NCBI GenBank assembly: GCA_051294905.1
Contig: CM119374.1
Span: 14,446,001-14,510,000 of the forward strand
Reading direction: 5' to 3'
Length of the DNA stretch: 64,000 nt
From: Botryllus schlosseri
Taxonomy: Eukaryota
Part shown: positions 9,273-56,500 of the stretch, one piece after another
Position numbering within the stretch: the stretch's first letter is position 1
How the letters are laid out: each line of letters opens with the position of its first letter
Translations under genes and position numbers: made by a program
The notes under the pieces: model-generated
Databases searched by the model: none
Told to the model about the DNA's origin: nothing
The model's input: only the letters and a program-made list of their open reading frames with translations

Positions 9273-9991
9273 AATATATTCATATTACATCACACGAGTC
9301 TGATTTTACTATCGATCTCGCGAAACCGATAGATTCTGGTGAATGGGAGATAGGGCTTGCCGAGTTGTCTTTTAAAAATAATTTTCAGCCCACGTTCGAG
9401 CCTTACGACGGCTTATTATGGTACGTGAATGATGCGGAAGGCGATAATAATTTTTATTATTTCCCGGCTGGTGATTATCATGATAAAATTAGTTTGATGA
9501 AGCGTATCAATCACGATCAGAAAAAAGCACGATTTATTTGGGTAGATGGTTCTGGTCCGGTCTTGATAGCGGGACCCTACAAGAGTTCCAGCGGTCCGAC
9601 ACTTTTCATGGATAATAGAAACCCCGTTCTCAGAGGAGGCGCTCGTTCGGAGGTAGAGCTAGATGGCGGATTACATAGACGAAGAACGATTCACTTTCAA
9701 GGGGAACCTGTGTCCGTGACCAACGTTTTAGTTTATACGGATGTCATCACACCTCAAATTGTAGGTGATACGAGTGCGCCTCTACTTCGCAATATCCGCG
9801 TTACGACAGGAATAGATGAATATCAGCATATGCTATTCAAAAAAATATATTTCTTTCCTCTGAATACGGAGCGAGTAAGCCAGATTCGCGTTATGCTTCG
9901 TGATGATAAAGGCGAAGCTATAAAGTTTGGGAACGCGCCTCTTCATCTCACACTTGCTTTGAGACATCATGAGGAGTCATTATTGCTGTGA
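9269..9991 (+). CDS. Minor capsid protein (penton), copy 2
   Basis: FTIDLAKPI..GEWEIGLAELSF and VYTDVITPQIVGDTSAPLLR...YFFPL...LRDDKG. Confidence 0.87.
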   Translation: MKYIHITSHESDFTIDLAKPIDSGEWEIGLAELSFKNNFQPTFEPYDGLLWYVNDAEGDNNFYYFPAGDYHDKISLMKRINHDQKKARFIWVDGSGPVLIAGPYKSSSGPTLFMDNRNPVLRGGARSEVELDGGLHRRRTIHFQGEPVSVTNVLVYTDVITPQIVGDTSAPLLRNIRVTTGIDEYQHMLFKKIYFFPLNTERVSQIRVMLRDDKGEAIKFGNAPLHLTLALRHHEESLLL

Positions 9992-10340
9992 TCGGGAGGC
10001 GTTCAGAAACTATTATCACCAACAGAGCGGTGGTGATATCAATTTTTTTCGGGGTAAAGTGCAGAGAGGTCATGGACTTGGAAACTTATTTCGTTCGTTC
10101 GGAAGAAGCGTTATGCCCTTAATTTCGAAAGGTGCAAAATCACTCGGGAAGCGTCTACTACATACCGGTGCGCAAGTAGCCTCTGATGTTCTTAATGGAG
10201 AGAATGTCGGTGATAGTCTTAAAATACGCGGCAAAGAAGCCGCTGGGAACGCTCTCGATTCTTTACTGAGAAAAAGAAAAATACCAAGACGGGGCCGTAA
10301 GATCACGAAAAAGAGACGTCGCAAAGATATTTTCGATTAA
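9969..10340 (+). CDS. Small basic virion-type protein with QxGG/QxGxG protease-type sites and amphipathic helix
   Basis: YYHQQSGG...QRGHGLGNLFRSFGRSVMPL and an Arg/Lys-rich tail. Sits immediately before the MCP. Confidence 0.8.
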   Translation: MRSHYCCDREAFRNYYHQQSGGDINFFRGKVQRGHGLGNLFRSFGRSVMPLISKGAKSLGKRLLHTGAQVASDVLNGENVGDSLKIRGKEAAGNALDSLLRKRKIPRRGRKITKKRRRKDIFD

Positions 10341-10389
10341 ATATATATTACACGACGATAAGCATCATTTGTTACTTGAGACTTGATAG

Positions 10390-11667
10390 ATGGCGGAGTT
10401 AATTCATGTACAGTCCCCAGAGGGGGTACATCCCTCATTGGATTTATTTCACATTCCCGCGACACAGACTAGCGTTGAAAAGAAAAGAATCATCAAGATA
10501 GCACCGATTTCGAACAACTCTAGTGTGATAACATTCCGCTTTGAGGGCTCAGAAGACTTTATCGATTTGAGCGAGAGCTATTTCTTATTTCATTTACAAT
10601 TAAAGAAAGGTGGCGAAGCAATTGGCGCCGACGATGATGTTGGAGTTGTAAATAATATCTTGGATTCCTTGATTACTCAACTACAAATTAAAGTCGCTAA
10701 CGAAACTTTGAAACAAGATATAAAAGTACAGTGTTATTCGTCCTATCTGCACAATTTATTCGCTCCGCTTGACGTGCAAAGTACCACACTGAGGGCCTCA
10801 GGATGGAGAAAAGATACTTTAGGAGAAATGGATACGATCGGTGGAACTAACGCCTCGGCTAACAAAGGATATTACAACAGGAGTAAAGCCTATAAGGATG
10901 ATAACGTGGTGGAAATACGTGCAAAAATCCATCACGGACTATGTCTGCAAGACCGCTACATCCTACATGACGTGCCTCTCGAGTTTGAGCTTACCTTGAA
11001 TCCGAAAAGCTTTTTCATGATGGGAGATGCTACCGGTCAATTCACCTTAACGAAAAAGGAATTACAGTTATGTAGCGTACGAGTCAGCGACGATGTGAAG
11101 ACAGCGATGATGGTGAATGCCCAGGCGAAATATCCGTATATCGACATGAAATTGATCACCCGAACATTTGCGGCTGCTACGACGCAGATAGATATCGGGA
11201 ATCTATATAGCGGGACTCTACCTTCTCGCCTAATCATCGGAATGGTAGCTACGAAAGCCTTTCAAGGAGATGTTACGAAAAATCCTTATAATTTCATACA
11301 CAATAATATGCAACGACTCGAACTGAAACTGAACGGATTTCTGATTCCGGAGGGAGGTTATGAGCTAGATTTCGATAAGGGTCATTACACGGAGCTTTAC
11401 CATAACCTGATTGAGGGTACGGGTGCAATGGAGAGAAACACAGGACTCCTAACACCTGAAGAGTTCGCTAGTGGTTTCTGTCTACTGGTTTATAATTTGC
11501 GTCCTGATGATTTGGATGATTGCTTTGACTTACAAAAGAGTGGTACCTTAAGTTTACGGATCACATTTCCTGCTGGCGGGCTAACAGCGGAAACTACTTT
11601 GCTCTGTTTCATGGAATTCCAGAAGCTATTGCAAATCAGTAGCAGTCGTAAAGTGACCGTGCTATGA
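10390..11667 (+). CDS. Major capsid protein (double jelly roll, hexon-like)
   Basis: LDLFHIPATQTSVE, G.LPSRLIIGMV...AFQG...NPYNF, GFCLLVYNL. 425 aa, intact. Confidence 0.93.
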   Translation: MAELIHVQSPEGVHPSLDLFHIPATQTSVEKKRIIKIAPISNNSSVITFRFEGSEDFIDLSESYFLFHLQLKKGGEAIGADDDVGVVNNILDSLITQLQIKVANETLKQDIKVQCYSSYLHNLFAPLDVQSTTLRASGWRKDTLGEMDTIGGTNASANKGYYNRSKAYKDDNVVEIRAKIHHGLCLQDRYILHDVPLEFELTLNPKSFFMMGDATGQFTLTKKELQLCSVRVSDDVKTAMMVNAQAKYPYIDMKLITRTFAAATTQIDIGNLYSGTLPSRLIIGMVATKAFQGDVTKNPYNFIHNNMQRLELKLNGFLIPEGGYELDFDKGHYTELYHNLIEGTGAMERNTGLLTPEEFASGFCLLVYNLRPDDLDDCFDLQKSGTLSLRITFPAGGLTAETTLLCFMEFQKLLQISSSRKVTVL

Positions 11668-12119
11668 ACGGGGATGAAATAGACCAAATATTGTGGTGCT
11701 GCGAGTCAACAAAACATATTTTCCTTGGTACATTTCCTATCGATCGACTGCCGAGGCGACCCCCTCCTCCTTATGCTATCGTGATCAATTATGACGAAGC
11801 TCGAAAAATCGGAAGTCACTGGATATGCATTTACGCGGATGAGGATGAGACACATTTTCACGATAGTTTTGGCTTAATGCCACTGAAATACGAGATTGCC
11901 TGCTTTATAGAACCAGAAAATTATACCTGCTCTATAAAGCGTCTGCAGCACAAACGTTCCAGAGCGTGCGGTCATCATTGTCTAAGCTTTATCGTTCATA
12001 AGGCGCGCGGATGGAGTACGGAACGTTATTTAAATTCCTTTGGCGAAGATCACCGCAAGAATGATTCGATCGTGCGTCGCTTCGTCAAGGAGCTGAAGCA
12101 AGAAAATGAAATTGTGTAA
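11664..12119 (+). CDS. Adenain-like cysteine maturation protease
   Basis: IVINYD..GSHW, FHDSFG, LQ..RSRACGHHC (His/Asp/Gln/Cys set present). Confidence 0.95.
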   Translation: MNGDEIDQILWCCESTKHIFLGTFPIDRLPRRPPPPYAIVINYDEARKIGSHWICIYADEDETHFHDSFGLMPLKYEIACFIEPENYTCSIKRLQHKRSRACGHHCLSFIVHKARGWSTERYLNSFGEDHRKNDSIVRRFVKELKQENEIV

Positions 12120-12130
12120 ATGTATATGCG

Positions 12131-12136
12131 AATAAA
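12131..12136 (+). terminator. AATAAA polyadenylation signal closing the viral gene block
   Basis: 11 nt after the protease stop, followed by T/G-rich sequence. Confidence 0.6.
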
Positions 12137-12242
12137 ATCAATAGTTTCAAAGTTTGCTTAGTACGTTTAAGGGCGATATTCGCTACGTTCATTATAGCAA
12201 TCATCTCAATCAGCAGTAGCGACCTGCTTTCGATTAGGCGAT

Positions 12243-13099
12243 AGTGGCTACATATTACCATCATCTAGCAAGAAACAGGAATTTGTATTGAGTGACTTCG
12301 CTCCTACAGCAAACGCAACTTACATTACGGCGTTACTGAACATCGAGTAATAAGCGGGACTAGTCAGGCTACCCTTAATACGAATTTGCATTTTGCTGGT
12401 ACAATCTATGCTATAGTTGAGCGACTTTGATACGACCTCAGCACACTTCTTTGATATAGCTGCGCAACGATCTAGACTTGAACGTCTGATACAGATGTGA
12501 TGTTATAGCTTCAACTCATAGCGTTTTAGGAGATAAATTATAGCATAGGTTATAGATTTTATTCACAATCGGAAAAGCATCAGTTCACTAACTATTAAAA
12601 TCACGCATCTAAAAGCAGCTTATGGACTAGTGGCTTCATATTATCATCATCTAGCAGGAACCAGGAATTTGTATTGAGTGACTTCGTTCCTATAGCCCCT
12701 GCAAACGCAGCTTACGTTAATACGGCGTTACTGAACATCGAGTAATAAGCGGGACTAGCCAGGCTACACTTAATACGAATTTGCATTTTGCGGGTACAAT
12801 CTATGCTATAGTTGAGCGACTTGAAATGATACGACCTTGGCATACTTCTTCGATATAGATGTAGCTGCGCAACGATGTAGCCTTGAACGCCGACGTCTGG
12901 AACAGCCGCGATGTCGGTGATCTGAAATCTTAAGATATAGCTTCAACCCGCAGTGGCATAGCGTTTTAAAAAAAGAGATAAATTATAGCATATAGACATA
13001 GGTTTAGCTATAGATTTTATTCACTATCGGAAATGTTATGATAACGCATCAGTACACTAGCTATTAAAATCACATATCTAAAGCAGCAGCTTATGGACT
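12243..13099. repeat. Two diverged tandem units (12243-12628, 12629-13099) related to the 713-bp array
   Basis: Both start AGTGGCT.CATATTA.CATCATCTAGCA and end AGCAGCTTATGGACT. They share blocks (GAGTAATAA, TAGCTTCAA, AAATTATA) with the 713-bp unit. Confidence 0.85.
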
Positions 13100-13286
13100 T
13101 GTAAAATCAACATAATATCAGTAGTTAGATGCTTGCTACAACTCGCAATTTACCGCCTTTATGGCATGAGTAAAGCTAGCTAAAGATTTAGCTTCAAGAC
13201 GCTATGGCGTAGCGAATTTTAGAATAGCTCATAAATTATATTTTTCAGCCCACGTTTTGCGACTTTAGTATAGGTATTGGATCTAA

Positions 13287-16200
13287 TTGGTGGTTAACAT
13301 TATAGCCACGCATAGAACTCATTATTACGTTAGCTATTGGAGAAATCTCAACGTAAATCAATCCGCGTTCACAATTCGCGTAAGCTAATGCTGCATCGAG
13401 AAATTATAGCTACATTTAGTTTAAATTGGAACGAAAATACATTGATCTTACCTTATGCCTGCGATGCCTGCATCCCTGCGCACATGGCAATACTTGTCAG
13501 CAGCTTATGGACTTGTAAAATCAACATAATATCAGTAGTTAGATGCTTGCTACAACTCGCAATTTACCGCCTTTATGACATGAGTAAAGCTAGCTAAAGA
13601 TTTAGCTTCAAGACGCTGTGGCGTAGCGAATTTTAGAATAGCTCATAAATTATATTTTTCAGCCCACGTTTTGCGACTTTAGTATAGGTATTGGATCTAA
13701 TATATTCTATAAAACATGTGATTACGTTATTAGCTATTTAAATGATGCGATATAGGGGAAATCTCGGTGTAATTCAATCTGCGCATCATTGAAAAAATTA
13801 TAGCCAATTATTGATGAGGCAGTGGGGCAATCTGGTGAGGTTCTTGGCCGCGTGAAATAGGATGTTTCAGCTTAAAACTCAACGCATTAGCATGCCTAAT
13901 TTATAACCACAGCGAGATTCGAGTAATAACCGAGGCTAGATAGTCTACCTTTAACAGAAAACTTGCATATACATTCGAATTTGTACGACTTCGGCTATAT
14001 TGGTGGTTAACATTATAGCCACGCATAGAACTCATTATTACGTTAGCTATTGGAGAAATCTCAACGTAAATCAATCCGCGTTCACAATTCGCGTAAGCTA
14101 ATGCTGCATCGAGAAATTATAGCTACATTTAGTTTAAATTGGAACGAAAATACATTGATCTTACCTTATGCCTGCGATGCCTGCATCCCTGCGCACATGG
14201 CAATACTTGTCAGCAGCTTATGGACTTGTAAAATCAACATAATATCAGTAGTTAGATGCTTGCTACAACTCGCAATTTACCGCCTTTATGGCATGAGTAA
14301 AGCTAGCTAAAGATTTAGCTTCAAGACGCTGTGGCGTAGCGAATTTTAGAATAGCTCATAAATTATATTTTTCAGCCCACGTTTTGCGACTTTAGTATAG
14401 GTATTGGATCTAATATATTCTATAAAACATGTAATTACGTTATTAGCTATTTAAATGATGCGATATAGGGGAAATCTCGGTGTAATTCAATCTGCGCATC
14501 ATTGAAAAAATTATAGCCAATTATTGATGAGGCAGTGGGGCAATCTGGTGAGGTTCTTGGCTGCGTGAAATAGGATGTTTCAGCTTAAAACTCAACGCAT
14601 TAGCATGCCTAATTTATAACCACAGCGAGATTCGAGTAATAACCGAGGCTAGATAGTCTACCTTTAACAGAAAACTTGCATATACATTCGAATTTGTACG
14701 ACTTCGGCTATATTGGTGGTTAACATTATAGCCACGCATAGAACTCATTATTACGTTAGCTATTGGAGAAATCTCAACGTAAATCAATCCGCGTTCACAA
14801 TTCGCGTAAGCTAATGCTGCATCGAGAAATTATAGCTACATTTAGTTTAAATTGGAACGAAAATACATTGATCTTACCTTATGCCTGCGATGCCTGCATC
14901 CCTGCGCACATGGCAATACTTGTCAGCAGCTTATGGACTTGTAAAATCAACATAATATCAGTAGTTAGATGCTTGCTACAACTCGCAATTTACCGCCTTT
15001 ATGGCATGAGTAAAGCTAGCTAAAGATTTAGCTTCAAGACGCTGTGGCGTAGCGAATTTTAGAATAGCTCATAAATTATATTTTTCAGCCCACGTTTTGC
15101 GACTTTAGTATAGGTATTGGATCTAATATATTCTATAAAACATGTAATTACGTTATTAGCTATTTAAATGATGCGATATAGGGGAAATCTCGGTGTAATT
15201 CAATCTGCGCATCATTGAAAAAATTATAGCCAATTATTGATGAGGCAGTGGGGCAATCTGGTGAGGTTCTTGGCTGCGTGAAATAGGATGTTTCAGCTTA
15301 AAACTCAACGCATTAGCATGCCTAATTTATAACCACAGCGAGATTCGAGTAATAACCGAGGCTAGATAGTCTACCTTTAACAGAAAACTTGCATATACAT
15401 TCGAATTTGTACGACTTCGGCTATATTGGTGGTTAACATTATAGCCACGCATAGAACTCATTATTACGTTAGCTATTGGAGAAATCTCAACGTAAATCAA
15501 TCCGCGTTCACAATTCGCGTAAGCTAATGCTGCATCGAGAAATTATAGCTACATTTAGTTTAAATTGGAACGAAAATACATTGATCTTACCTTATGCCTG
15601 CGATGCCTGCATCCCTGCGCACATGGCAATACTTGTCAGCAGCTTATGGACTTGTAAAATCAACATAATATCAGTAGTTAGATGCTTGCTACAACTCGCA
15701 ATTTACCGCCTTTATGGCATGAGTAAAGCTAGCTAAAGATTTAGCTTCAAGACGCTGTGGCGTAGCGAATTTTAGAATAGCTCATAAATTATATTTTTCA
15801 GCCCACGTTTTGCGACTTTAGTATAGGTATTGGATCTAGTATATTCTATAAAACATGTAATTACGTTATTAGCTATTTAAATGATGCGATATAAGGGAAA
15901 TCTCGGTGTAATTCAATCTGCGCATCATTGAAAAAATTATAGCCAATTATTGATGAGGCAGTGGCGCAATCTGGTGAGGTTCTTGGCTGCGTGAAATAGG
16001 ATGTTTCAGCTTAAAACTCAACGCATTAGCATGCCTAATTTATAACCACAGCGAGATTCGAGTAATAACCGAGGCTAGATAGTCTACCTTTAACAGAAAA
16101 CTTGCATATACATTCGAATTTGTGCGACTTCGGCTATATTGCCGGTTAACATTATAGCCACGCACAGAACTCATTATTACGTTAGCTATTGGAGAAATCT

Positions 16201-16330
16201 CAACGTAAATCAATCTGCGTTCACAATCCACGTAAGCTAATGCTGCATCGAGAAATTATAGCTACATTTAGTTTAAATTGGTACGAAAATACATTGATCT
16301 TACCTTATGCCTGCGATGGCTGCCTCGCTG
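13287..16330. repeat. Tandem array of 713-bp units (starts 13287, 14000, 14713, 15426, partial 16139), preceded by a deleted unit at 13084-13286
   Basis: Exact 713 spacing of TTGGTGGTTAAC, and of the repeated 86-aa ORF calls. Only a few substitutions between units. Confidence 0.97.
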
Positions 16331-16858
16331 CGCACATACTTGTAATAGAAATGCGAAGTTTTCAGAATGCGAATTGCTTTACGTCGGAACTAAACATTCT
16401 AATTCGTAACGCCAACGCGGCATTTTCTTGGAAACGCAACTTTATTTAGAATGTTCTAATTCACTTTGTCGATGTGGCGCAACTTTTTGGAATCGTAAGC
16501 AACTGTATTCGTGGCACATTTACACGCGTCAATTTCTTGGAATAGTATTCAGCAATATGCGCGTGAGCTTTCGCGTCATTGTAGACATTTATGGTGGCGA
16601 TATCTGCATTATCAAGTTGCATTCGCAGAATTCCTCAAAATCATTGACTAATTAATGATGACACAAGTGTTATAGTCGAACATAGTCTTACATTTATGTG
16701 TTATTACTCGAAAAAGGTGTTGTCTCGGAATTTAAGAGAGAATCGGTGGTTATATTCTCAAAACAGCTCAATACGCCTAGTTTGCTCAATAGACTGGTGG
16801 TGGGCGATGTGAAATTATACCCAACCAAACCAGGTTCGATTCTAGCTAAGGTAAGTTT

Positions 16859-17178
16859 TGACGTGGCAATGAGTGACATAGGTGCAGCAATCGACATCGC
16901 GCGGGTTGATGCTGTGCAGCCTATAGATGCGGCAATCAATGCGGTGATGATATGGCAATGGATGATGTGACACTATAGACGTGGCAATGGGTGTGCTATA
17001 GGTGCGGCAAGTGACGTGGCAATGGGTGTCCTATAGGTGCGGCAATGGGTGGATGATGTGGCAATGGGTGTCCTATAGGTGCGGCAATGGGCGGATGATG
17101 TGGTAATGTAGGCGTGGCAATTAAGGCGACGTGGCGAAATTTGATTGGCCTGCAACAAAAACGGATAACAACACTACT
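16859..17178 (-). promoter_or_regulatory. Putative Polinton terminal repeat with GTGGCAAT/ATAGGTGCGGCAA repeats, four GACGTGGC motifs and an ERSE
   Basis: 42-bp tandem units at about 17022-17105. GACGTGGC at 16860, 16978, 17013, 17128. CCAAT-N9-CCACG on the minus strand at 17130-17148. ACTACT end. Confidence 0.65.
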
Positions 17179-18896
17179 CATCCGCCCCATCGCATGCACT
17201 TTCTGATCAACTATGAGTACCACTGTTGCTTCGATTGTATCACCGTATCTGATCAATGAATCATTTCTCAATTATCCACCGGAAGGACATCACGCCGCGC
17301 ATTGTGTAATGCAGAAGCTCGGGAATGAGCGGAAGTAAAACTTATGCTTTCGAGCATGCACCAAATAATTACATAGTTAGATCTAGCCGGATCATGCCAT
17401 GATACGCATTTTTCGGTGTTTATAGGTTAGCGCAAACGTTTTGTTTCCGTTCGAGTTCGGTATACGCGAATAATGATATTTCACAGATTGACGTATGAAA
17501 AGAACCGTAGTAGATCTACCCTGTGAGCGTTTTCGGGAATGCTCTTAATTTTACTGAAATATTAACATTTTTGGTTGAAATTCGATGAAATTGAACAGAC
17601 AGAGAGACAGATTATGAAATTTTTACTGTACAGACAGACAATCAAACAGACAAACGTACAGTATATTGCTTCGTCAAAAATATCAATTTGGACTGAAACT
17701 TCCTATGTACCCACTGCATCGCACTAGGGACGAGAGAGTGAGGAAGTTATTAGAAAATTACTGGTTATGTCCTTGGCCCGTACGTGTGCTAATCATTAGA
17801 GCGAGATCACTATCTTCTTACAAAGTGTAAGTGGTAACTATTGTATACACCAGCTAGAGACACATACGGTCTGGACTCAAAACATTCTACCAGTGGCACA
17901 ATACTACTGGGTGCTGATCATAAGGGCAGTGGTCGGATATAGCTCAGTGGATATAACCGATTCCCACCAATTCTATATTGAACAGTCTTTCGAAATATTA
18001 TAAGATCAACGAATAAATTGGCATTACTTGTTACTATGAATGAGTTTTTTGTAACACAGCTGACTGATAAATCTGTGAAAGAATCGGCTGACAAAAGTTT
18101 GAATCCGACTACCGCTTGTGGGCCATAAACTCCTGGGATTTTACTAACAAGTTGCTGATCATGTTCGTACCAGGGCTGTGAACAATGATTGGAGTACTAG
18201 AATCTGATGCGAGTAATAATTGCAATGATCCGTGTCGAAGAGCAAGAGTAGACTTTTACAACTACCGAAATATTACGCCCCTTTCCACTAACATTTAATT
18301 TTTCAACGAGAATTCTACTTTCGATACTATATTTCCACCACGGAAGTCTAGAAACCTCGATCGACCATATTACAGCATATACAGATAATGTGGTACAAAG
18401 CTATATGCATGCCAGTGTAAATGGCATATCTGAGTCGTGATCAACCCACAACATTGTCACAAAGTGCAATAACATTATTATTAATATTAGTATTGTAAAA
18501 AGTGATAGAGGCGCTTTTCTCCCATATGGGGCTGGTACGCCGAGGTCGGTCATTACCTTCTGGTACAGGGTCGGCGGCGGATATGGGAAAATGAAGCACT
18601 TGGCGGGCCAGATTACAGAATATATACATTTTATACCTTAATCGCGTATTTATCCGCCTATAAAAGGAATCAATTTTATTTAATGTAAACTTCAAGTTTA
18701 AAGCTTGGAGAATAAAAACAGTATTTAATGAATTTATTTACAACAGCTATTGAAGTCAATCAGACATCTGTGGTCGTCCAATATTGTCAACTAGTTGTTT
18801 GAACTCTGGTTGCATGTCATATGCGGAAACCCTTAGTAAAGCTGCCCGCAAACATCTGTTATATTGGAACGCAGCCTTCCTCGTTAATGTTCGTGG

Positions 18897-19752
18897 CAGC
18901 GTTGGGATGAAGTCACTACCTTTGAGTCACAAGCCATCTCGAATCAAGTCAAGTCACTTTATTTTCAAAGGTGACTCATCGGGTCAAGTCAAGTCACTCG
19001 ATTTTTGGAAGTGACTTGAGTTAGGTCGAGTTAAGTCAAGTCAAGTCACGAGTCAAATCACTCGATTTTTAGAGGTGACCCGAGTCAAGTCGAGTCGAGT
19101 CAAGTCAAGTTGAAATGTCAAAGTACTATAATAGACATGATTCAAAGTCATTACATTTTGCTAATTGTTTCAAATACAGATGAAGTACCCATTTATTCTG
19201 AAAAGAGGAACGAATAGTGGATTATACGCGCAAAAGGCACTGTATCGCTCACGCATACGTAGAACTGCTCATCTACGCAAGTATAGCGGTATAGCCTTAG
19301 TGATTAAATATCAGCCAAAATACAGGATAACATACGAAACCACAGAAAGTTTAAAAATGATATAGTTCAATACCCTACCCACCTACATATCCATGATATA
19401 CAATTATGAACGCATGAGCGATATTCGTTTGATTTAAATTATATACAAGAGGGTTGGTCAAGGTGAGCAAGGTTACGACAACGTGAGCTGTTGTATAAGC
19501 TCCCATCATTGTTTTTGCGATCGATTTATTTGTGATATAACAATCCGGATATGGCAATCCGAACTTATAAAAGATACAGCGATTTAGTCGACATCGATTA
19601 CTTGATGACTTGAAATTGACTCGTAAGTTTGGCTTCAGGTCACGAGTCAATCTGCATTTCTGAAGCGTTGAGTCAAGTCAAGTCATTTTTCCAATGTGAC
19701 TCGAGTCATGTCAAGTCATACGAAAAAGGTGACTCGAGTCATCCCAACACTT
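18897..19752 (+). mobile_element. hAT-type MITE with GAGTCAAGTC subterminal repeats (family A)
   Basis: TIR CAGCGTTGGGATGA...TCATCCCAACACT; 8-bp TSD GTTCGTGG/GTTCATGG. Confidence 0.85.
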
Positions 19753-27991: not shown

Positions 27992-30900
27992 TGTTGTGAG
28001 CACGAAACAATATTCGTAAGCAGTTTATTACTTCGGCTTAAATGAACTAATACCTTGACTACGATACTCGCAATACCAACAGTTAAGACAACAGCAACAT
28101 AAATGAAGAACGGTTCTCAGTACACGAAACAGGTAGGCAGTCTGCAATCATTACAGTCCACGCCAGTACATTACGACGAATGATCTTTAACACAGAAAGG
28201 TAATCACAACAAAACTGAAGTCGGTACCAATTTGACACCAAACATACAACATTCACCCCTCCTTATTTCAATGAGGCACTGGTTGTCCGTATCTATTCGG
28301 TGGGACGCCTCGTGTTATTCTAGAGGAGCGGCGAGGTACAACTTGCATTTCGTTTGAACGGGAAGGAGAATTGTCCCCTTCGTTTGACGGTTCTTCATCC
28401 TTCTGGGTAACGAGCTTGCAACCCTCGATGGCATCGGGGAGCTCCTGAATAACTGGATTTTCCTCCGGAACTTGCGGACGAGGACACGGGGCAATATCGG
28501 TTATTGCAACGTTTCTTTCTCTTCCATCGACGTGGCGTACGTTCGCATACAACGGGTTGGCGTTCAACAGTTCCACTTCCTCCACCGAATCGTCGTTTTT
28601 ATTTGAACGGGCGTGACGTTTCAGGAACACAGAACCAGGTTGGGATAACCAAGTCGGCAGGGTCTTTCCGCTGGGTAGCCTGCGATTGAAACCAAAAAAC
28701 AGTTCATGCGGAGTAGAATTTGTACTAGTACAAAGCAAGGAGCGAGTCGCTCGCAATACATGGGGTAAAGCTAGCTCCCAGGATTCGACGGGTAACTCGT
28801 GTGATCGAAGGTATAATCGGATCGCTTTCCACAAAATCCCATTATAGCGTTCGACTTGAGCATTTCCGGTCGGATGATAAGCGGTAGAATGGCTGCTTGC
28901 AACACCCTTACAGAGTAGGTAATCTTTGATTTCGCGAGACATGAACGAACTACCACGATCTGAATGAATGTAATTAGGCGTACCACAAAGCGCAAATAGC
29001 TCATCTAGACATTTGATAACAGTGGATGACCACATATTTGGACAAGCGAAGCAAAATGGAAAGCGTGAAAACTCGTCAACCACTACTAGTGTATATCTGT
29101 TACCAGAGTTCGATGGTATGGGACCTTTGAAATCCATGTTTAAACGCTCGAACGGTTTTGTAGACTTGATAAAGACTCCCTGTTCTCGGCGATAAAACCG
29201 AGGCTTGATTTCGGCACACACTTGACAGGTCGAGCATACTCTTTTAACATCGGACGTTGAGTAGGGCAAGTTCTGCGAACGAACGATATGAAGAAGCCGG
29301 GTGACTCCCGGATGACATAGCTCTCGATGCAGTTCTTCGAGATTACACGTGGAAATGGACGAACAATGGGCTCGGGTCAGGGCGTCGGGCGCACTATGCA
29401 ATTCTCCTGGCCGATATCGAATATCGTACGTGAACTGCGCCAAATCTATAGGCGCCAACACTGAACCTTATTGTTCTTGATTTTCGACCGCTTTCGCATA
29501 TCGAACATGAACGAAACAGCTTCCTGATCCGTGATCAATGTAAATCTTCGTCCTGCCAAAAAGTGCTGCCATTTCCTCACTGCTTCGATAATAGCGGTCG
29601 CCTCTTTCTCGACGGCAGGGTAGTGCTTTTCGCTATTGTTGAGCGTGCGGGACATGAAAGCAATAGGTCGGCCACCCTGATTCAACGTCGCCGACACCGC
29701 GACATCGGAGGCATCACACTCCACCACAAAGGGCTCGTCGTCATCGATCGCTTGTAAAGCGGCGTCCTCCACGCCCTTTTTCAATGCATTGAAATCATTC
29801 AAGCACTTCGCGTTGATTGGAAAATCGACACAGTTGATCAAACTTGCAATTTTGTCTGAGAACGCTGGTATCCACTTTGCGTAATAGGCAAATAATCCCA
29901 ATGCCCTCTTCAGAGCTTTCTTGTTTGTAGGTGGAGGCAATTCACGCAATGGTTTCAATCGCTCCGGATCAGGTTTTATGACACCACGACCAACGCGGTA
30001 TCCTAATATATCCACCTCTGCAACCGATGAAATGGCCTTATTGTGGTTGAGGGTCATGTTTCTTGCACCCAACGCATTCAGCAAGCGCTCAACATTTTTA
30101 TCGTGTTCCTACTGTGACTGGCCTGCGACAGTGACATTATCAAGGTATGGAAACGTATCTGTCAGTTTATCCGAATCGACAATCGCGTCCATAGTTCGTT
30201 GAAATGCGGGTACACCGTTCGTGACCCCGAACGGCAACCGATTGAACTCCCACAATCGACCGACGGCTTCAAAAGCGGTAGGCGCTTTATCGGACTCTCG
30301 TAGCTCCAATTGGTGATACGCGCTCTTCAAATCAAAAGTTGAAAATACTTTGTATTTTGCCAGTTTTTGTACGATGTCCTCTATGCGAGGTAACGGATAG
30401 GCATCGAGTACCGTAAAGCGGTTCACAGTTTGCGAATAATCTATGCACATTCGCTTTTTACCGGATTCTTGATTGGTTACGACCAATGGCTGAGCGCGCC
30501 ATGGTCAACTACTTGGTCTTATAATTCCGTCTTTGGACAGCTTGTCAACTTCACATTCGATGAAAGATGTATCTGCAGCGCTATAACGCCTTGATCGCAC
30601 GCACACTGGCTTGAAATCTGACGTAAGGGACTTGAAGAGTTGTGGACATTTCGTGTTAGATGCTAGAGCAGCACAGGTTCTACGGTCCTGAGATGCTATA
30701 ACGAGTTCCGGGTCTTTGCCATTATACGTGAACACCACGCGTTTGTGCCGTTTCTGAAAGTCTTGAGCAAGTATTATATCGCAACAGAGATCTTTCATGA
30801 CGCCTAGCGTGACATTTTTGTAAACCTTCCCGTTTAACAACAACTCTACGATGCATTGACCAGAGATGGATTCTTTCAGAGACTTTGCCGCCATCGTTAC

Positions 30901-32171
30901 GCAATCTGTATAGGGCAACGCCCGCAATTTCATCGCTTCAACTGTCCTTGGATTGATGTAGCTTAAGCCACTTCCAGGATCCATTAACGTTGACATTCGC
31001 TCGTCTTTTAGGAATGTATCTATGATTGCGTAACGCAAACATCTTGGTGCTTCTTGTATAGCGCAGGACGAGGACGAACTATGTTTCGTGGATACTGTTT
31101 TTCGAGTGGATGCATCTGCTACACTTTTGCAAACTTTCGAGTAGTGCCCCGTCTTCCCACATTTGTAACAGGTGGATGAGCTTGCTGGACAATTTTTACG
31201 GGCATGTTGAATTTTGTCACCACAAAAATAACATTTCCACTCGCCACGATGCACAGCTGCTGCAGCGTTTTCACTTTCTTTGTCGGATGCTGCTTCGGAT
31301 TGAACGGTTGCTATTGGAATCTCGGCACCGCCAGAAGACATGTACGAGGACGAATTTCTTTGTGCAATGTCCAAGGTGCGGGCCTTCCTAAAGGCACTGT
31401 CAATTGTCAATTCGGTTTCCTCCAACAACCGCTGCCGTATGGCATGCGAAAGAATGCCGTTGATGAAGGAGTCTCGAATAAATCCGTCTCGGTGTTCAGT
31501 TTTGGAGACTGCAAGAAAGTTACAATCCTTGCTTAATCTGCGTAGTTCTTGCAAATATTCATCCAAGCTTTGTCCGTGCTTTTGTTTCGTTGTCGCCAGC
31601 ACATGACGTGCAAACACCTTGTTATGTGCTTTGACAAATAGGTTGTCTAACGTTGCAATTGCGGTTTCATAAGTCTCAGCTTCATCGATATACTCGAAAA
31701 GGACATACGATAAGAAGTTTGTAAGAATCTTGAGTTTTTCTATTCTGGCACTTCCTGTCTCGAAGGCCGCAAGATAATTCTCGTAAGTTCTTCGCCAATG
31801 CTTCCACTCTTTCTCTGACGTCGGGCTATTGGGTTCAATTTCCAATACCTTCGGTTTCAACGGCTTCAGTGCTTCAGACATTGTATCGTCAAGAACTTTA
31901 GTTCATTTAATTGTTGTGAGCACGAAACAATATTCGTAAGCAGTTTATTAGTTCGGCTTAAATGAACTAATACCTTGACTACGATACTCGCAATACCAAT
32001 AGTTAAGACAACAGCAACATAAATGAAGAACGGTTCTCAGTACGCGAAACAGGTAGGCAGTCTGCAATCATTACAGTCCACGCCAGTACATTACGACGAA
32101 TGATCTTTAACACAGAAAGGTAATCACAACAAAACTGAAGTCGGTACCAATTTGACACCAAACATACAACA
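27992..32171 (-). mobile_element. Full-length Ty3/Gypsy LTR retrotransposon (non-chromoviral, Mag-like), inactivated
   Basis: 260-bp LTRs 27992-28251 and 31912-32171 (TGT...ACA, 3 differences), 5-bp TSD AAGTG, PPT at about 28252-28267. Confidence 0.97.
28268..31881 (-). pseudogene. gag-pol (gag with CCHC knuckles, PR, RT, RNase H, integrase) with two nonsense codons and one frameshift
   Basis: RPSS*PWRAQ at about 30505; AGQSQ*EHD after YLDN at about 30109; +1 frameshift at about 29446-29455 (QCWR/IDLAQF). Integrase MDFKGP, SDRGSSF, VERYNG. Confidence 0.92.
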
Positions 32172-51764: not shown

Positions 51765-53066
51765 CAGCGGTTCTCAACCTTTTTTGACACGCGCCCCCCT
51801 TGGCGATGGTCAAAAAAATCGCGCGCCCCTGACCCCCCCCCCCCTTACATTTATCGTCATGTCAAAAAGAGCACATCATCTAATACAGAGGTGGGCAACC
51901 TTTTTGCTAATCATGGCCGCATTTCGGTAGCTTAAGGCCGCATTCCAAGGCATAGCCGCAATGAACGATCTGGACGCAAAATACATATGGTAAACTGTCC
52001 ATATCCATTCCCGGTGAACTCCGGGTTATTCTACTTTTCACAACGGCCTATTGTACGCACCGAAATCGCGAGTGGCAATGTTATGAATAGTTGTCGGGAG
52101 TGCATATTGTCGCGCAGGGCGCAAAAATTTTTCAGAGCCGCGAATGAATTGTTATTTCTTGAGGATTCCCATTCCTGCTCCAATTAAGAAGGGCCCTACT
52201 GCATTAAAATCGAAAAATGAAGTCTTGTTGAATTGCGCGGAGCGCGAAGAAAATTTCAAGATTAAATAAAATCTCTCGAAAATTCGGGAGTAAATTAGTA
52301 ATTGCAATTTGCATGTCTACCACTGCCAACACATACTAATTGAATTAGGCGTCGACGGTCGCACAAATTCCCTTCTACGGCCGCATGCGGCCGTACGGGC
52401 TGCCCACCACTGATATAATAATATACATAAGGTATATCTTACGCCAATTTTGAATCCGCATTAGAGTTGTTTAGTCTTTTACATTGCTGACAAACTTCCC
52501 CAAACTAGTTTGAAAATAACAAAAAAACATTGAAAAGGACATCAATTAATTTCAAGGTAGGTTGCACTGAGACTAATCCTGATGCTGGTAGTGACTACAG
52601 AGAGCACGGCGTCGTTCTGTCGTGCCATGCTAAATTTGATCAGTTTTGGAAACGAATTAAATTGTGTTGATTTATAGCCAATTCGAGGGCGAAACCGGGC
52701 AACCTATATTGCATCTAAGTCTGTCTTAGGCAGTGCAGTTAGCCAGCTGTCAACAACAGCTACCTAGCGCACAGAGATTTAGGCTACTGTCAAAGCTATA
52801 AAGTAATGAATGACTTGCACGTAGGAATTTCTCTAAATCTTCAAAGAATATCAAAAATTTGCTCAAATGAAGTTGAAGTCTGCCTATACTCCGTTGAGCG
52901 CGACTGCTGGAGTATGAGTTTGTCAAGCTTTCTAGAATACGAATTAAGTTTAATCTTCAATAATCGTATCTTCAGAATGGTTGTGAAACACATGTTTAGT
53001 CACAATTTATACAGACATTGACAAAATTGACAAAAATTTCTCGCGCCCCCAGGTTGAGAACCCCTG
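51765..53066 (-). mobile_element. Internally deleted derivative of the adjacent Buster transposon, inverted, carrying a nested MITE (51886-52412)
   Basis: Same TIRs and subterminal sequence as 53583-56675, TSD TTCTAGAC. Inner MITE CAGAGGTGGGCA...TGCCCACCACTG with TSD ATCTAATA/ATATAATA. Confidence 0.9.
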
Positions 53067-53582
53067 TTCTAGACAGTAAACCATTTGTGTTATGTCCCAG
53101 TTTTTTACAGCCAGACTGTTCAGAGTCAAGTGTACCTGTTTGATGCTGGTGTGATCAGACTAGATGACCTTCACGGTCTTATCGATCATTCCTATCTAAT
53201 ACCGAATACTGTGCATGCATATTTTCTGTTCCATCATCACTGCCGTTTGTTATGTATTTTGGTTGGATGAAAATAAAGACTCTCTCTCTCCCTCTCTCTC
53301 TCTCCAGTTTCAAGGCCAAAATCTCCTATGTTGTTCCGAGACCGAAATTCCGAGGCTGCTTTCGTCTTACTTCTTCAAATTTAAAATGATGTGTTGGATT
53401 CAATATGACAGGCCCAATCTATGAGATAACAATGGCGTGTTTATATAGTTCAGTGGTCTGAACTCGTTGACCTTTCCGGTTAGGCTATACGCAATATCTC
53501 GAGATTGTTAGCCAGGTCAATTGCGAACATGAATCGTGTTGAATTTCTGCTCCGTACGCCGTTTATGCAGTTTCCTTTAGAG

Positions 53583-56500
53583 CAGGGGTTCTCAACCTGG
53601 GGGGCGCGGGAGGCTCTCAGGGGGGGCGCGAGAAATTGACGAAGTCAGTATAGGGGGGGCGCGAGAAATTGACAAAGTCGGTATAAATTGTACGTGTCTA
53701 AACATGTGTTTCACATCCATTATGAGAAGACGATTAATGATGATGAAACTTATTCTATATTCAAGAAAGCTTGCAAAATACAAACTCTAGCAACAGCGCT
53801 CAGCGGAGTATAGGCTGATTTCAACTTCATTTGAGCAAATTTTTGAAATTCTTTGTTGATATAGAGAGCAATTCCCACGTGTAAGTCATTCATTGCTTCA
53901 TAGCTTTGACATTAGCCAAAAGCTTGTCGCGCTGGGCAGCTCTTGTTAGTAGCTTGCGAACTGCACTGCCTAAGACAGACTTAGATGCAATATAGGTTGC
54001 CCGTTTTCGCCCTCAATTAGGCTACCCTAAATCAACACAATTTAATTCAATTCCAAAACTGATCAAATTTAGCATGGCAGGACAGAACGACGCCATACTC
54101 CAAGTGGTCACTACCAGCATACATCTATCTCGCACTAATAACATCGATCACCACATATTCATGTTATTATCTTCAAACTTACAGGCTTATCATACCTGAC
54201 TCCAAAATTTGTTAACATTTCGTGGATAAGTCGCTAGATCACAAATATTACAAATAATGAAACTTTTTACGTAATAAACATAAGTTATTTGTTCTCATCT
54301 ACAACTATCTGAAGATTTATCGGGATTACTGTTACAATGTTACACGTTCTGTACTTTTGAACATTCCGCTAGTCAAGCGAATGGATGATATTATGAACGG
54401 TATTACGTGGTTTACATTCATCAAGCGCATGATCATGATCATATATCGTTGTCAATTGCACGATGATGTCACAATGAAATTGTCGGATCAGGTGCCACAT
54501 TGTCTGCATCTGTGTCGCCGAGGTTTCCACTCATGTCGATTTCGATAATATTGCTATTGTAGGCAGCGGCGTGGGCGTGAATTTTCATCGACATCGTCAA
54601 TTTGCTTGAACTAGTATGAGTGGTAAAAAGAGAAAGTATGTAGAATATTATCTGAAATTTGGATTCATAGAGACCATTGTAAATGGCGAAGTTGTGCCGC
54701 AATGCGTGATATGTTTTCAAAAACTGAGCAACGACGCGTTGATACCAACTCGTCTGGAGCGTCATCTCGAGAAAAAACATTCCGCCCATCAAATTAAGCC
54801 TCTATCTTTTTTCCACAGCAAGAAAGCCTCATTTGAGAAAATGAAGGGTGCATATAGCAAGTGCTTTCGTCAATCTCCGGCTGCTGAAGTCCTTGAAGCG
54901 TCTTACGTAATTACTTACATGATAGCTCTAGAGAAGAAACCCCATAGTATTGGCGAAACGTTGATAAAACCCTGCATGCTACGAGCAGCTAGGCTCGTGT
55001 TGGGTGAGGCGAGCAGTAAGAAGCTTGCGGGGATTTCTCTTTCTAATTCTACCATTAAAAGACGCATCGATGAGCTCGCAGAGGATATTGAGTGTAAAGT
55101 TATAGATAAGATTCACGCATCACCTTATTTCGCCATTCAGTGTGATGAGACGACTGACGTTGCTCAATTGTCTCAGTTGATGGTCTATGTTCGCTTTGTT
55201 GGGCCTACTTCAATCGAAGAAGACATATTATTTTGCAAACCCTTGGAAACGACTACTAAATCAGAAGATATATTCGAACTTGTCGCCACATTTTTTGATA
55301 ACAATGATATAAAATGGGAGAAACTTGTTGGCGTCTGCACTGACGGTGCCCCAGCAATGATTGGATCGCGAAGTGGATTCATTGCCAGGATAAAGCAAAG
55401 AAGCACAAATGCGGTAGGATCGCACTGCGTGATTCACCGAGAGGCTCTTGCTTCCAGAACTCTACCTGCTGCAATGAAGGATAATTTTGCAATATTCATT
55501 CGAATCGTTAACTTTGTCAAAGCAAGTGCAGTCAATACGAGATTGTTTACTAAACTGTGCCAAGATATGGATTCCGATCATGAAACTTTACTGTTTCATA
55601 CATCTGTTCGGTGGTTGTCAAAAGGTAATATGTTAGCTCGAATCTATGAAATGAGGGAAGAACTGAAGCTATTTTGGGAAGCTCATGGTAAAAAGGATCT
55701 GCTTCTGTCGTTTACATCAGAGAAGATGCAGCTGCAGTTGGCCTACTTTGTGGACAGATTTCAAGCCCTCAATAATTTAAATCTCTCCCTACAGGGGAAG
55801 GATGCGAATCGCATTGCAGACTATGATGCGATTCACGCTTTCGTAGAAAAACTTGGGCTGTGGTATCGTCGAATTCAAAAAGGAAATGCGGCTTCATTTT
55901 ACAACCTTGACACTATACTTGACAAAAAAATTGAAATGAAGGGCGCGCTCAAAGCCGAGGTGGAGAATCACCTTCAACTTCTGAAACAAGAATACGAACG
56001 CTATTTTCCAGACTTGAATGATACCGAGCTTCCGGAATGGCGGATGACAAGGAATCCCTTTCATTTGAATGTGGATATTCTTCCGGGCTATTTGCAAGAG
56101 GAGTTTTTGGATCTAAAATGCAATTCTACTGCAAGAGACGACTTTGAAGCACTACCACTTACTGAGTTCTGGGTAAAATATATCCACATCTACAAGAGTG
56201 TGGGTGATGTGGCTATACCCATACTTCTTCCATTTTCATCCACTTACCTGTGCGAAAAGGGTTTTTCTACTCTTGTGAATATGAAGACAAAATCAAGAAA
56301 CAAACTCGACTGTGAATCCGATATGAGATGCGCATTATCTGCTACCTATCCTAGAATTGAACATTTGGTATCCAAAAAACAGGCGCAGCCTTCGCATTAA
56401 GATTAGTCTCGGTGCACCTTGAAATAAATTGATGTATTGTTCAATATTTTTTTGGTATTCTCAAACGAGTTTGGGGGAAATTAATCAGAAATGAAGTAGA

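What the first reader, a model, noticed from the sequence alone, without database searches (positions are those of the whole stretch)
16859..17178. Viral terminus carries an exact ER-stress element and four UPRE-like motifs
Seen: on the minus strand, 31 nt in from the putative AGTAGT terminus, is CCAAT-caaatttcg-CCACG (17148-17130). GACGTGGC occurs four times (16860, 16978, 17013, 17128), twice as TGACGTGGC. Established: CCAAT-N9-CCACG is the ERSE bound by NF-Y plus ATF6, TGACGTGG is the XBP1/ATF6/CREB3 UPRE, and XBP1s reactivates latent gammaherpesviruses. Inference: the mirrored left TIR would point this cassette into the viral genes, giving unfolded-protein-response-triggered reactivation of an endogenous virus. 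Alternative: the motifs are host-factor sites of the replication origin, like the NFI/Oct-1/ATF sites in adenovirus ITRs.
Basis: partly seen in the sequence, partly recalled or inferred. Interest (0 to 1): 0.75.

Follow-up and report, generated by a model that had tools for sequence, protein, structure and literature searches.

The report
Host-factor docking site at Maverick end
The end of a virus-like Maverick transposon carries a CCAAT box at the same distance from its tip as in some distant Mavericks, followed by repeats that likely bind host transcription factors; the exact ER-stress element is real but was not seen in relatives, so stress-triggered awakening remains an untested possibility.

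Summary
The motifs are real: one exact ERSE at 17148-17130 and four GACGTGGC. They are not five independent signals. One GACGTGGC is the ERSE's own CCACG half, only two are true UPREs, and all are units of a 14-unit degenerate minisatellite. The site is the right end of a Maverick/Polinton (pPolB, ATPase, integrase, capsid genes, AGTAGT; contig depth falls from thousands to about 21 just outside). The left end could not be recovered, so mirroring is untested. In related Maverick loci, 0 of 46 candidate ends have an ERSE or UPRE. But a CCAAT box sits at nt 31-32 in 4 of 46 against 0 of 185 controls, across three integrase clades counting this one. Nine bases further on, relatives carry G-x-ATT (6 of 6) where this element has CCACG. 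Best reading: an adenovirus-ITR-like host-factor platform, with a position-fixed CCAAT box and a family-specific bZIP repeat array. The ERSE arises where the two meet. A real unfolded-protein-response switch is possible (about 20%; adenovirus has XBP1s sites at nt 63-195) but nothing here shows it.

The parts
17173..17178 (-). Maverick end motif AGTAGT, (AGT)2 type; right terminus
   Evidence: motif type in PMC8097293 passages; summed contig depth in run X1 is 17,267 in bin 17114-17199 and 17-84 in the ten bins from 17200 to 18059. Depth places the end in that bin; the exact base rests on the motif.
17179..17184 (+). Candidate 6-bp target-site duplication (untested: left junction not available)
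   Evidence: One search prints the flank; no left end to compare with
17142..17150 (-). CCAAT box with NF-Y-type flanks (RR-CCAAT-S-R; consensus recalled), CCAAT at nt 31 from the end
   Evidence: same offset (31-32) in L050, L108, L141, L142, L143 and with one mismatch in L106
17130..17148 (-). Exact ERSE consensus, CCAAT-N9-CCACG; its CCACG half is the first unit of the repeat array
   Evidence: ERSE definition in PMC8910952 passages
16857..17135 (-). Degenerate subterminal minisatellite, 14 core units of two alternating types; 5 units carry CCACG, 4 of them GACGTGGC
   Evidence: some other copies skip 65-100 nt of it (joints)
17012..17019 (+). Perfect UPRE (TGACGTGG), offset about 160
16859..16866 (+). 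Perfect UPRE (TGACGTGG), offset about 313
16978..16985 (+). GACGTGGC that is not a strict UPRE (preceded by A)
17088..17093 (+). One GC box (not above chance, P=0.28)
12120..16856 (.). 4.7-kb region with no ATG frame of 80 aa or more; includes about 4.3 near-identical 713-bp tandem copies (13286-16337)
2044..5922 (+). Protein-primed family B DNA polymerase, 1292 aa
   Evidence: ESM Atlas top hits 0.96-0.97 to DNA_pol_B_2 clusters; 38% identical over its length to a gene beside ATPase and integrase in G003; no direct Pfam polymerase hit
5926..6543 (+). A32-like packaging ATPase
   Evidence: Pox_A32, E 9e-9
7305..8303 (+). Integrase with C-terminal chromodomain
   Evidence: rve E 2e-14, Chromo E 3e-8
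8463..10340 (+). Two putative minor-capsid genes and a small conserved core gene (names inferred from position and recall)
   Evidence: No Pfam or PHROG hit; tblastn hits in 46, 37 and 42 of 96 integrase-bearing loci
10390..11667 (+). Putative double-jelly-roll major capsid protein
   Evidence: Atlas 0.98 to clusters with DJR-like_dom on 24% and 15% of members, recognition below the tool's threshold; 4649 relatives at E<=0.001
11664..12119 (+). Putative adenain-type cysteine protease; last gene before the right end
   Evidence: Only a weak PDB hit (S273R protease, E 0.54); hits in 32 of 96 loci
319..375 (+). Own promoter-like signals of the first ORF in the window (414-1655): CCACG at -95, TATA box at -46
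   Evidence: function untested

Best explanation
This is the right end of a Maverick/Polinton element, and its last 330 bases likely act as a docking platform for host DNA-binding factors, as adenovirus terminal repeats do. Shown: a CCAAT box sits 31 nt from the tip, at the same offset and orientation as in Maverick ends of two other integrase clades; it is followed by a repeat array rich in CCACG/ACGT sites that was not seen in relatives; the exact ERSE lies where the first repeat unit fills a slot nine bases after CCAAT that relatives fill with G-x-ATT. Inferred: NF-Y (or an NFI/CTF half-site binder) binds the CCAAT box at fixed distance from the origin and helps load the protein-primed polymerase or opens the chromatin of the end; ACGT-core bZIP factors (ATF/CREB, CREB3, XBP1, ATF6 class) bind the array and give enhancer activity for the first genes when mirrored at the left end. 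ER stress would then be at most one input, not the dedicated switch.
For: End identity. CCAAT at nt 31-32 in 4 of 46 inward, non-coding AGTAGT sites of 112 Maverick-bearing loci against 0 of 185 control sites (Fisher p=0.0014; 0.10 expected); 2 of them exactly at 31, the offset fixed beforehand by the window, from unrelated sources (L050, L108). L142 and L143 align from exactly the AGTAGT onward, so those are true ends. Window, L050 and the G001 ends fall in three parts of the integrase tree (3 changes forced by starred branches). ERSE, UPRE and GACGTGGC in 0 of 46; N9 slot is G-x-ATT in 6 of 6. Other ends carry other motif sets (CRE/ETS in L104, E-box/ETS in L099, FOX in L018). Depth rises towards the tip far more than twofold (X7: 170 at 16340, 9,514 at 17114-17199), which fits many elements sharing only the end. 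Precedent: adenovirus ITRs hold core origin, NFI, NFIII, Sp1 and ATF sites (PMC5717082); NFI binds the origin and recruits the polymerase (PMC3610271).
Against: No binding or function was measured. Most candidate ends (42 of 46, many of them probably not real ends) lack CCAAT at 31-32, including the one paired AGTAGT repeat (L069). Three of the four hits come from one assembly (G001), two of them (L142, L143) were first seen through a CCAAT pattern search, and offset 32 was allowed after seeing them. No full NFI or octamer site is present here. The broader claim that Maverick ends are motif batteries is strong only on 15 hand-picked ends (67 hits vs 9.2) and weak when unselected (mean motif kinds 0.96 vs 0.67, p=0.12; three or more kinds in 6 of 46 vs 13 of 312, p=0.024). 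The tree is the quick version; the careful search did not finish. Summed contig depth is not a copy number.
Confidence: 0.55

Rival explanations
1. One reading: this Maverick family has wired its end to the unfolded protein response. NF-Y plus ATF6 at the ERSE and XBP1s at the UPREs would switch on the element's genes from a mirrored left end under ER stress or in highly secretory cells.
For: Exact ERSE and two exact UPREs, all of one factor class. The N9 slot is constrained in relatives (G-x-ATT in 6 of 6), so CCACG there could be a selected swap. Given the fixed CCAAT, the chance that an array CCACG starts at N9 is only about 2% (5 in 291 positions). Adenovirus has XBP1s sites at nt 63-195 whose loss lowers E1A and viral DNA (PMC7181865); XBP1 transactivates KSHV RTA (PMC7551196). 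None of the 40 listed best-supported variant positions falls in 17130-17148 (106 rows not shown).
Against: 0 of 46 candidate ends of relatives have an ERSE or UPRE; the 2 strict ERSEs in 582 kb of related loci lie inside ORFs. Only 2 of 14 units are UPREs, and some copies skip 88-100 nt including one of them. The right cassette faces away from all core genes, 4.7 kb from the last one; a left mirror would lie more than 413 nt upstream of the first ORF, which has its own TATA box. ACGT-core sites are also read by constitutive bZIP factors (recalled).
Confidence: 0.2
2. The repeats are binding sites for the element's own proteins (packaging ATPase, integrase or the unassigned ORFs), like subterminal repeats of DNA transposons or adenovirus packaging repeats (recalled), and resemble host motifs by accident.
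For: Tandem, degenerate, variable-number units next to a terminus; terminal depth far above interior depth; earlier unchecked notes describe hundreds of gene-poor elements that keep Maverick ends.
Against: Relatives with the same gene set have unrelated repeat units, several matching canonical host motifs, and the CCAAT box keeps host-type flanks across clades.
Confidence: 0.15
3. A neutral minisatellite expanded by slippage next to the end; the ERSE and UPRE matches are chance products of its unit and nothing binds them.
For: Units are not independent, vary between CG and CA at the core as methyl-CpG decay would give (inference), and vary in number; 6 of 100 window shuffles give an ERSE.
Against: It does not explain the fixed CCAAT offset across clades. 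A second organism label shows the same unit types in diverged copies (X6 loose ends).
Confidence: 0.1

Closest known systems
Maverick/Polinton elements with (AGT)2//(ACT)2 ends (PMC8097293; passages and part 1 of 43 of the supplement read)
   Same: End motif, integrase, pPolB, ATPase, capsid and protease genes, size over 17 kb
   Different: The passages read describe only the 6-bp end motif and TIR lengths (46-1,447 bp), no internal host-factor sites; here all core genes lie on one strand with a 5-kb gene-free right arm
Human adenovirus ITR and E1A enhancer (PMC5717082, PMC3610271, PMC7181865, bioRxiv 10.1101/2025.07.20.665756; passages read)
   Same: Protein-primed linear end followed by a CCAAT-family site and GC-box and ATF-type sites; XBP1s-type ACGT/CCACG boxes within 200 nt of the end; the terminal 450 bp are strongly active in reporters
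   Different: No full NFI dyad or octamer here; flanks fit NF-Y better (consensus recalled); the bZIP sites form a minisatellite; the element is integrated; no E3-19K-like activator of IRE1 was identified
Mammalian ERSE and UPRE (PMC8910952; passages read)
   Same: One exact CCAAT-N9-CCACG and two exact TGACGTGG
   Different: Not upstream of any recognisable gene at this end; no ERSE-II; inducibility and factor binding untested; non-mammalian host
XBP1-driven KSHV reactivation (PMC7551196; two passages read)
   Same: Concept of a silent DNA virus read by a UPR factor
   Different: There the sites lie in the promoter of a master transactivator; no such gene is identified here

Membership tests
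Maverick/Polinton | Retroviral-like integrase | tested here: met
   rve plus chromodomain
Maverick/Polinton | Protein-primed DNA polymerase B | tested here: met
   Atlas 0.96-0.97 to DNA_pol_B_2 clusters; direct Pfam and PHROG scans gave no polymerase hit
Maverick/Polinton | A32-like packaging ATPase | tested here: met
   Pox_A32, E 9e-9
Maverick/Polinton | Major and minor capsid genes and protease | tested here: inconclusive
   Atlas lead to DJR-like clusters, weak protease hit, same neighbours in 32-46 of 96 loci; no curated family hit, no PDB hit for the capsid profile
Maverick/Polinton | (AGT)2 end motif at a repeat boundary | tested here: met
Maverick/Polinton | [quoted passage not shown] | not testable with these tools
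   Left end outside the window, no genome held; no mirror in the window; end pattern absent from metagenome contigs
ERSE (functional) | CCAAT-N9-CCACG sequence | tested here: met
ERSE (functional) | Spacing and both halves conserved in relatives | tested here: not met
   0 of 46 candidate ends; N9 slot is G-x-ATT in 6 of 6; only distant relatives sampled
ERSE (functional) | Lies in the promoter of a gene | tested here: inconclusive
   No ATG frame of 80 aa or more within 4.7 kb at the right end; left end unknown
ERSE/UPRE (functional) | NF-Y, ATF6 or XBP1s binding and ER-stress inducibility | not testable with these tools
   No binding or stress data available
UPRE | TGACGTGG/A | tested here: met
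   2 of the 4 GACGTGGC and 2 of 14 units
Adenovirus-type origin | Full NFI dyad TTGGC(N5)GCCAA and octamer site | tested here: not met
   0 of each in the terminal 330 nt; only the GCCAA half
Adenovirus-type origin | CCAAT-family site at fixed distance from a protein-primed end | tested here: met
   Offset 31-32 in three clades; function untested

The most novel reading that the evidence does not exclude
Animal Maverick ends carry an old two-slot module, a CCAAT box fixed 31 nt from the tip plus a partner site nine bases on. This family has swapped the ATF6/XBP1 half-site into the second slot and amplified it, making an endogenous virus, and possibly hundreds of gene-poor satellites that share its ends, responsive to ER stress and scattering ERSEs across the host genome.
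Probability: 0.18. Interest if true: 0.85.

Novelty: new variant of a known kind. Interest (0 to 1): 0.5.

Why it matters
What switches animal Mavericks on, and whether they use host factors at their ends as adenoviruses do, is open as far as my searches showed. A CCAAT box at a fixed offset in three clades gives a precise, testable link between Maverick ends and the adenovirus origin/enhancer layout. I found no description of it in the held library (listings only; most subscription papers are not covered). If the ERSE also works, it would be a defined stress trigger for a Maverick and a route by which a high-copy element spreads stress-response sites.

Tried and rejected
Left end: no genome held; no mirror of the end in the window; the 22-nt end pattern had 0 matches in metagenome contigs; earlier-findings look-ups by place, sequence and words gave nothing on this motif. 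Close relatives with DNA: capsid query found none in viral contigs; the capsid alignment was too divergent for a locus search; the closest proteins (integrase 82% and 66%, capsid 79%) have no DNA available. RNA: no RNA holder listed. One single-cell run laid at about 3% of its reads gave depth 0.9-5.1 on one mate orientation against 0-0.7 on the other over 16684-17199, which would fit inward transcription, but 97% of laid reads run on unlike, so they cannot be assigned to this copy and say nothing on stress. A gene just inside the right end: longest stop-to-stop frame 94 aa; spliced genes not excluded. A hairpin pairing the flank 17179-17193 with a repeat unit: z=-1.8, 9 of 200 shuffles as stable; not pursued. 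Published TIR sequences: none found by text search in the PMC8502044 supplement (4.0 M characters searched, the archive may hold more); the PMC8097293 supplement part read has coordinates only (1 of 43 parts), and its logo figure is not held. Parvovirus origin-factor precedent: 0 papers; left out. The general motif-battery claim was downgraded after the unselected test. Dropped rows: L141 (CCAAT at 31) failed the automatic gene filter; L106 (one mismatch) counted as a miss; L154 has two facing CCAAT-N9-GTATT motifs around a pPolB but no AGTAGT and no matching arms and was not counted; loci L112-L140 and L144-L152, L164 were left out of the count.

Full report
Observation. The sequence claims hold. 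CCAAT-N9-CCACG is at 17148-17130 on the minus strand and begins at nt 31 from AGTAGT. It is the only such match in 64 kb (0.06 expected; 6 of 100 shuffles had one). GACGTGGC occurs six times in the window against 0.97 expected, four of them in the stated places. The motifs are not independent, though. Tandem Repeats Finder calls a period-42 array over 16978-17108, and 14 core units of two alternating types run from offset 44 to 312. Five units contain CCACG, four are GACGTGGC, two are strict UPREs, and the unit at 17128 is the ERSE's own second half. The ERSE and UPRE definitions match PMC8910952 (passages).

What the element is. Positions 414-12119 hold intronless plus-strand genes: a protein-primed polymerase (Atlas 0.96-0.97 to DNA_pol_B_2 clusters; no direct Pfam hit), an A32-like ATPase and a chromodomain integrase, and putative capsid and protease genes with weaker support. 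AGTAGT is the commonest Maverick end motif in vertebrates (PMC8097293 passages). Laying four public runs on 16340-18900 shows summed contig depth of 4,900-61,900 in X1 up to 17199 and 17-84 over 17200-18059; in X7 it climbs from 170 at 16340 to 9,514 in the last bin and is 0-3 beyond. Depth is not copy number, but the step marks the boundary of a high-copy repeat, and the climb suggests many elements share only the end. Earlier unchecked notes on this genome describe hundreds of gene-poor palindromes with Maverick ends; I could not check that they share this sequence. The left end is outside the window and no genome is held, so TIR and target duplication are untested.

Geometry. Between the last gene (12119) and the array lie 4.7 kb with no ATG frame of 80 aa and about 4.3 copies of a 713-bp repeat. 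At this end the cassette faces against all core genes. No mirror exists in positions 1-413, so a left copy would be at least that far from the first ORF, which has its own TATA box at -46 and a CCACG at -95. A mirrored cassette would thus be an enhancer or origin element more than a proximal promoter (inference).

Relatives. An integrase alignment fetched 111 loci from three collections, and gene searches in five assemblies added more contigs. All are distant. Three loci with paired terminal repeats (L001, L052, L069) have no ERSE or UPRE, and the two strict ERSEs in the first 96 loci lie inside ORFs. For an unselected test I took all inward-pointing, non-coding AGTAGT sites outside the gene cluster in 112 Maverick-bearing loci (of 125 considered): 46 sites, many probably not real ends. 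None had an ERSE, a UPRE or GACGTGGC within 330 nt. Four had CCAAT at nt 31-32, against 0 of 185 other AGTAGT sites (p=0.0014; 0.10 expected). Three of the four are from one assembly, two were first seen in a CCAAT pattern search, and offset 32 was allowed after the fact. The two exactly at 31, L050 and L108, came from the integrase search and from unrelated sources. L142 and L143 align from exactly the AGTAGT, so they are true ends. Adding L141 and the one-mismatch L106, all six ends have NF-Y-type flanks (consensus recalled) and G-x-ATT nine bases after the box, where the window has CCACG. On a quick integrase tree of 45 rows the window, L050 and the G001 ends lie in three places, with three changes forced by well-supported branches (careful search unfinished; L142 and L143 have no integrase and are not in it). 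The feature is therefore ancestral with losses, or convergent.

Other ends carry other host-like motifs. On 15 hand-picked ends a panel of 18 recalled consensus motifs gave 67 hits against 9.2 expected, but ends and panel were chosen after reading the sequences. Unselected, the effect is weak: 0.96 against 0.67 motif kinds (p=0.12), and three or more kinds in 6 of 46 against 13 of 312 tiles (p=0.024). I treat this as suggestive only.

Mechanism. The best-supported reading (0.55) is a host-factor platform like an adenovirus ITR, which holds core origin, NFI, NFIII, Sp1 and ATF sites (PMC5717082), where NFI recruits the polymerase (PMC3610271) and the terminal 450 bp are strongly active in reporters (10.1101/2025.07.20.665756). 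Shown: the end, the fixed CCAAT offset, the array not seen in relatives, the different occupant of the N9 slot. Inferred: which factors bind and whether they serve replication, transcription or both. No full NFI dyad or octamer is present, so this works like, but is not, an adenovirus origin. Against it: no conservation in relatives, 2 UPREs in 14 units, copies that skip one of them, and no gene to drive at this end. The two readings can both hold. Sites for the element's own proteins (0.15) and a neutral minisatellite (0.1) explain the array but not the fixed CCAAT.

Novelty. The element is a Maverick on four features met, one inconclusive and one untestable. I found no report of CCAAT boxes, NF-Y or UPR elements in Maverick ends in the held library (listings and abstract starts only), nor in earlier findings; supplements and figures I could not see may bear on this. 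Verdict: new variant of a known kind, interest 0.5. The comparative CCAAT result is firmer than the ER-stress claim but rests on few independent lineages.

Noticed in passing
window 592-626 vs 13805, 14518, 15231, 15944: A 35-nt piece of the first ORF recurs (91-94% identical, same strand) in each 713-bp repeat, between an AG and a GTGAG that look like splice sites; possibly a captured mini-exon.
   Followed up: partly
window 13286-16337: About 4.3 tandem copies of 713 bp at 98-99% identity inside the element's right arm, a recent expansion; an older 76% duplication lies at 12242-13102.
   Followed up: no
window 414-1655 and 1492-2010: Two ORFs (413 and 172 aa) before the polymerase have no Pfam or PHROG hit and no tblastn hit in 96 related loci; candidates for family-specific regulators.
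   Followed up: partly
window 17179-17193: The flank just outside the end resembles an inverted copy of a repeat unit at 17085-17100 (hairpin z=-1.8), and the single-copy flank contig of X1 starts at 17190.
   Followed up: partly
L050, L106, L108, L141, L142, L143, L154, L160: CCAAT-N9-G-x-ATT recurs at Maverick ends and near them; the second half matches no motif in my panel.
   Followed up: partly
L101:7891(-) and L104:386(+): Both candidate ends have ATTGG (reversed CCAAT) at exactly nt 42.
   Followed up: no
L069:1-182 and 14875-15051; L080:820; L081:9481; L088:2593; L045:5428: Terminal or candidate terminal repeats with nuclear-receptor-like, YY1, FOX, ETS and E-box motifs; L069 and L045 also hold telomere-like TTAGGG runs.
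   Followed up: partly
window 27992-32171: LTR retrotransposon with 260-bp LTRs 99% identical and gag, RT, RNase H and integrase in separate frames.
   Followed up: no
window 52582-56400: A fold-back of inverted arms (52582-54120) next to a 594-aa hAT-type transposase ORF.
   Followed up: no
window 58655-60562: Large inverted pair of 15/16-bp minisatellite arrays around telomere-like repeats.
   Followed up: no
L097-L111 (G001-G005): Several prokaryote genome bins contain contigs with Maverick genes, probably co-binned eukaryotic host DNA.
   Followed up: partly
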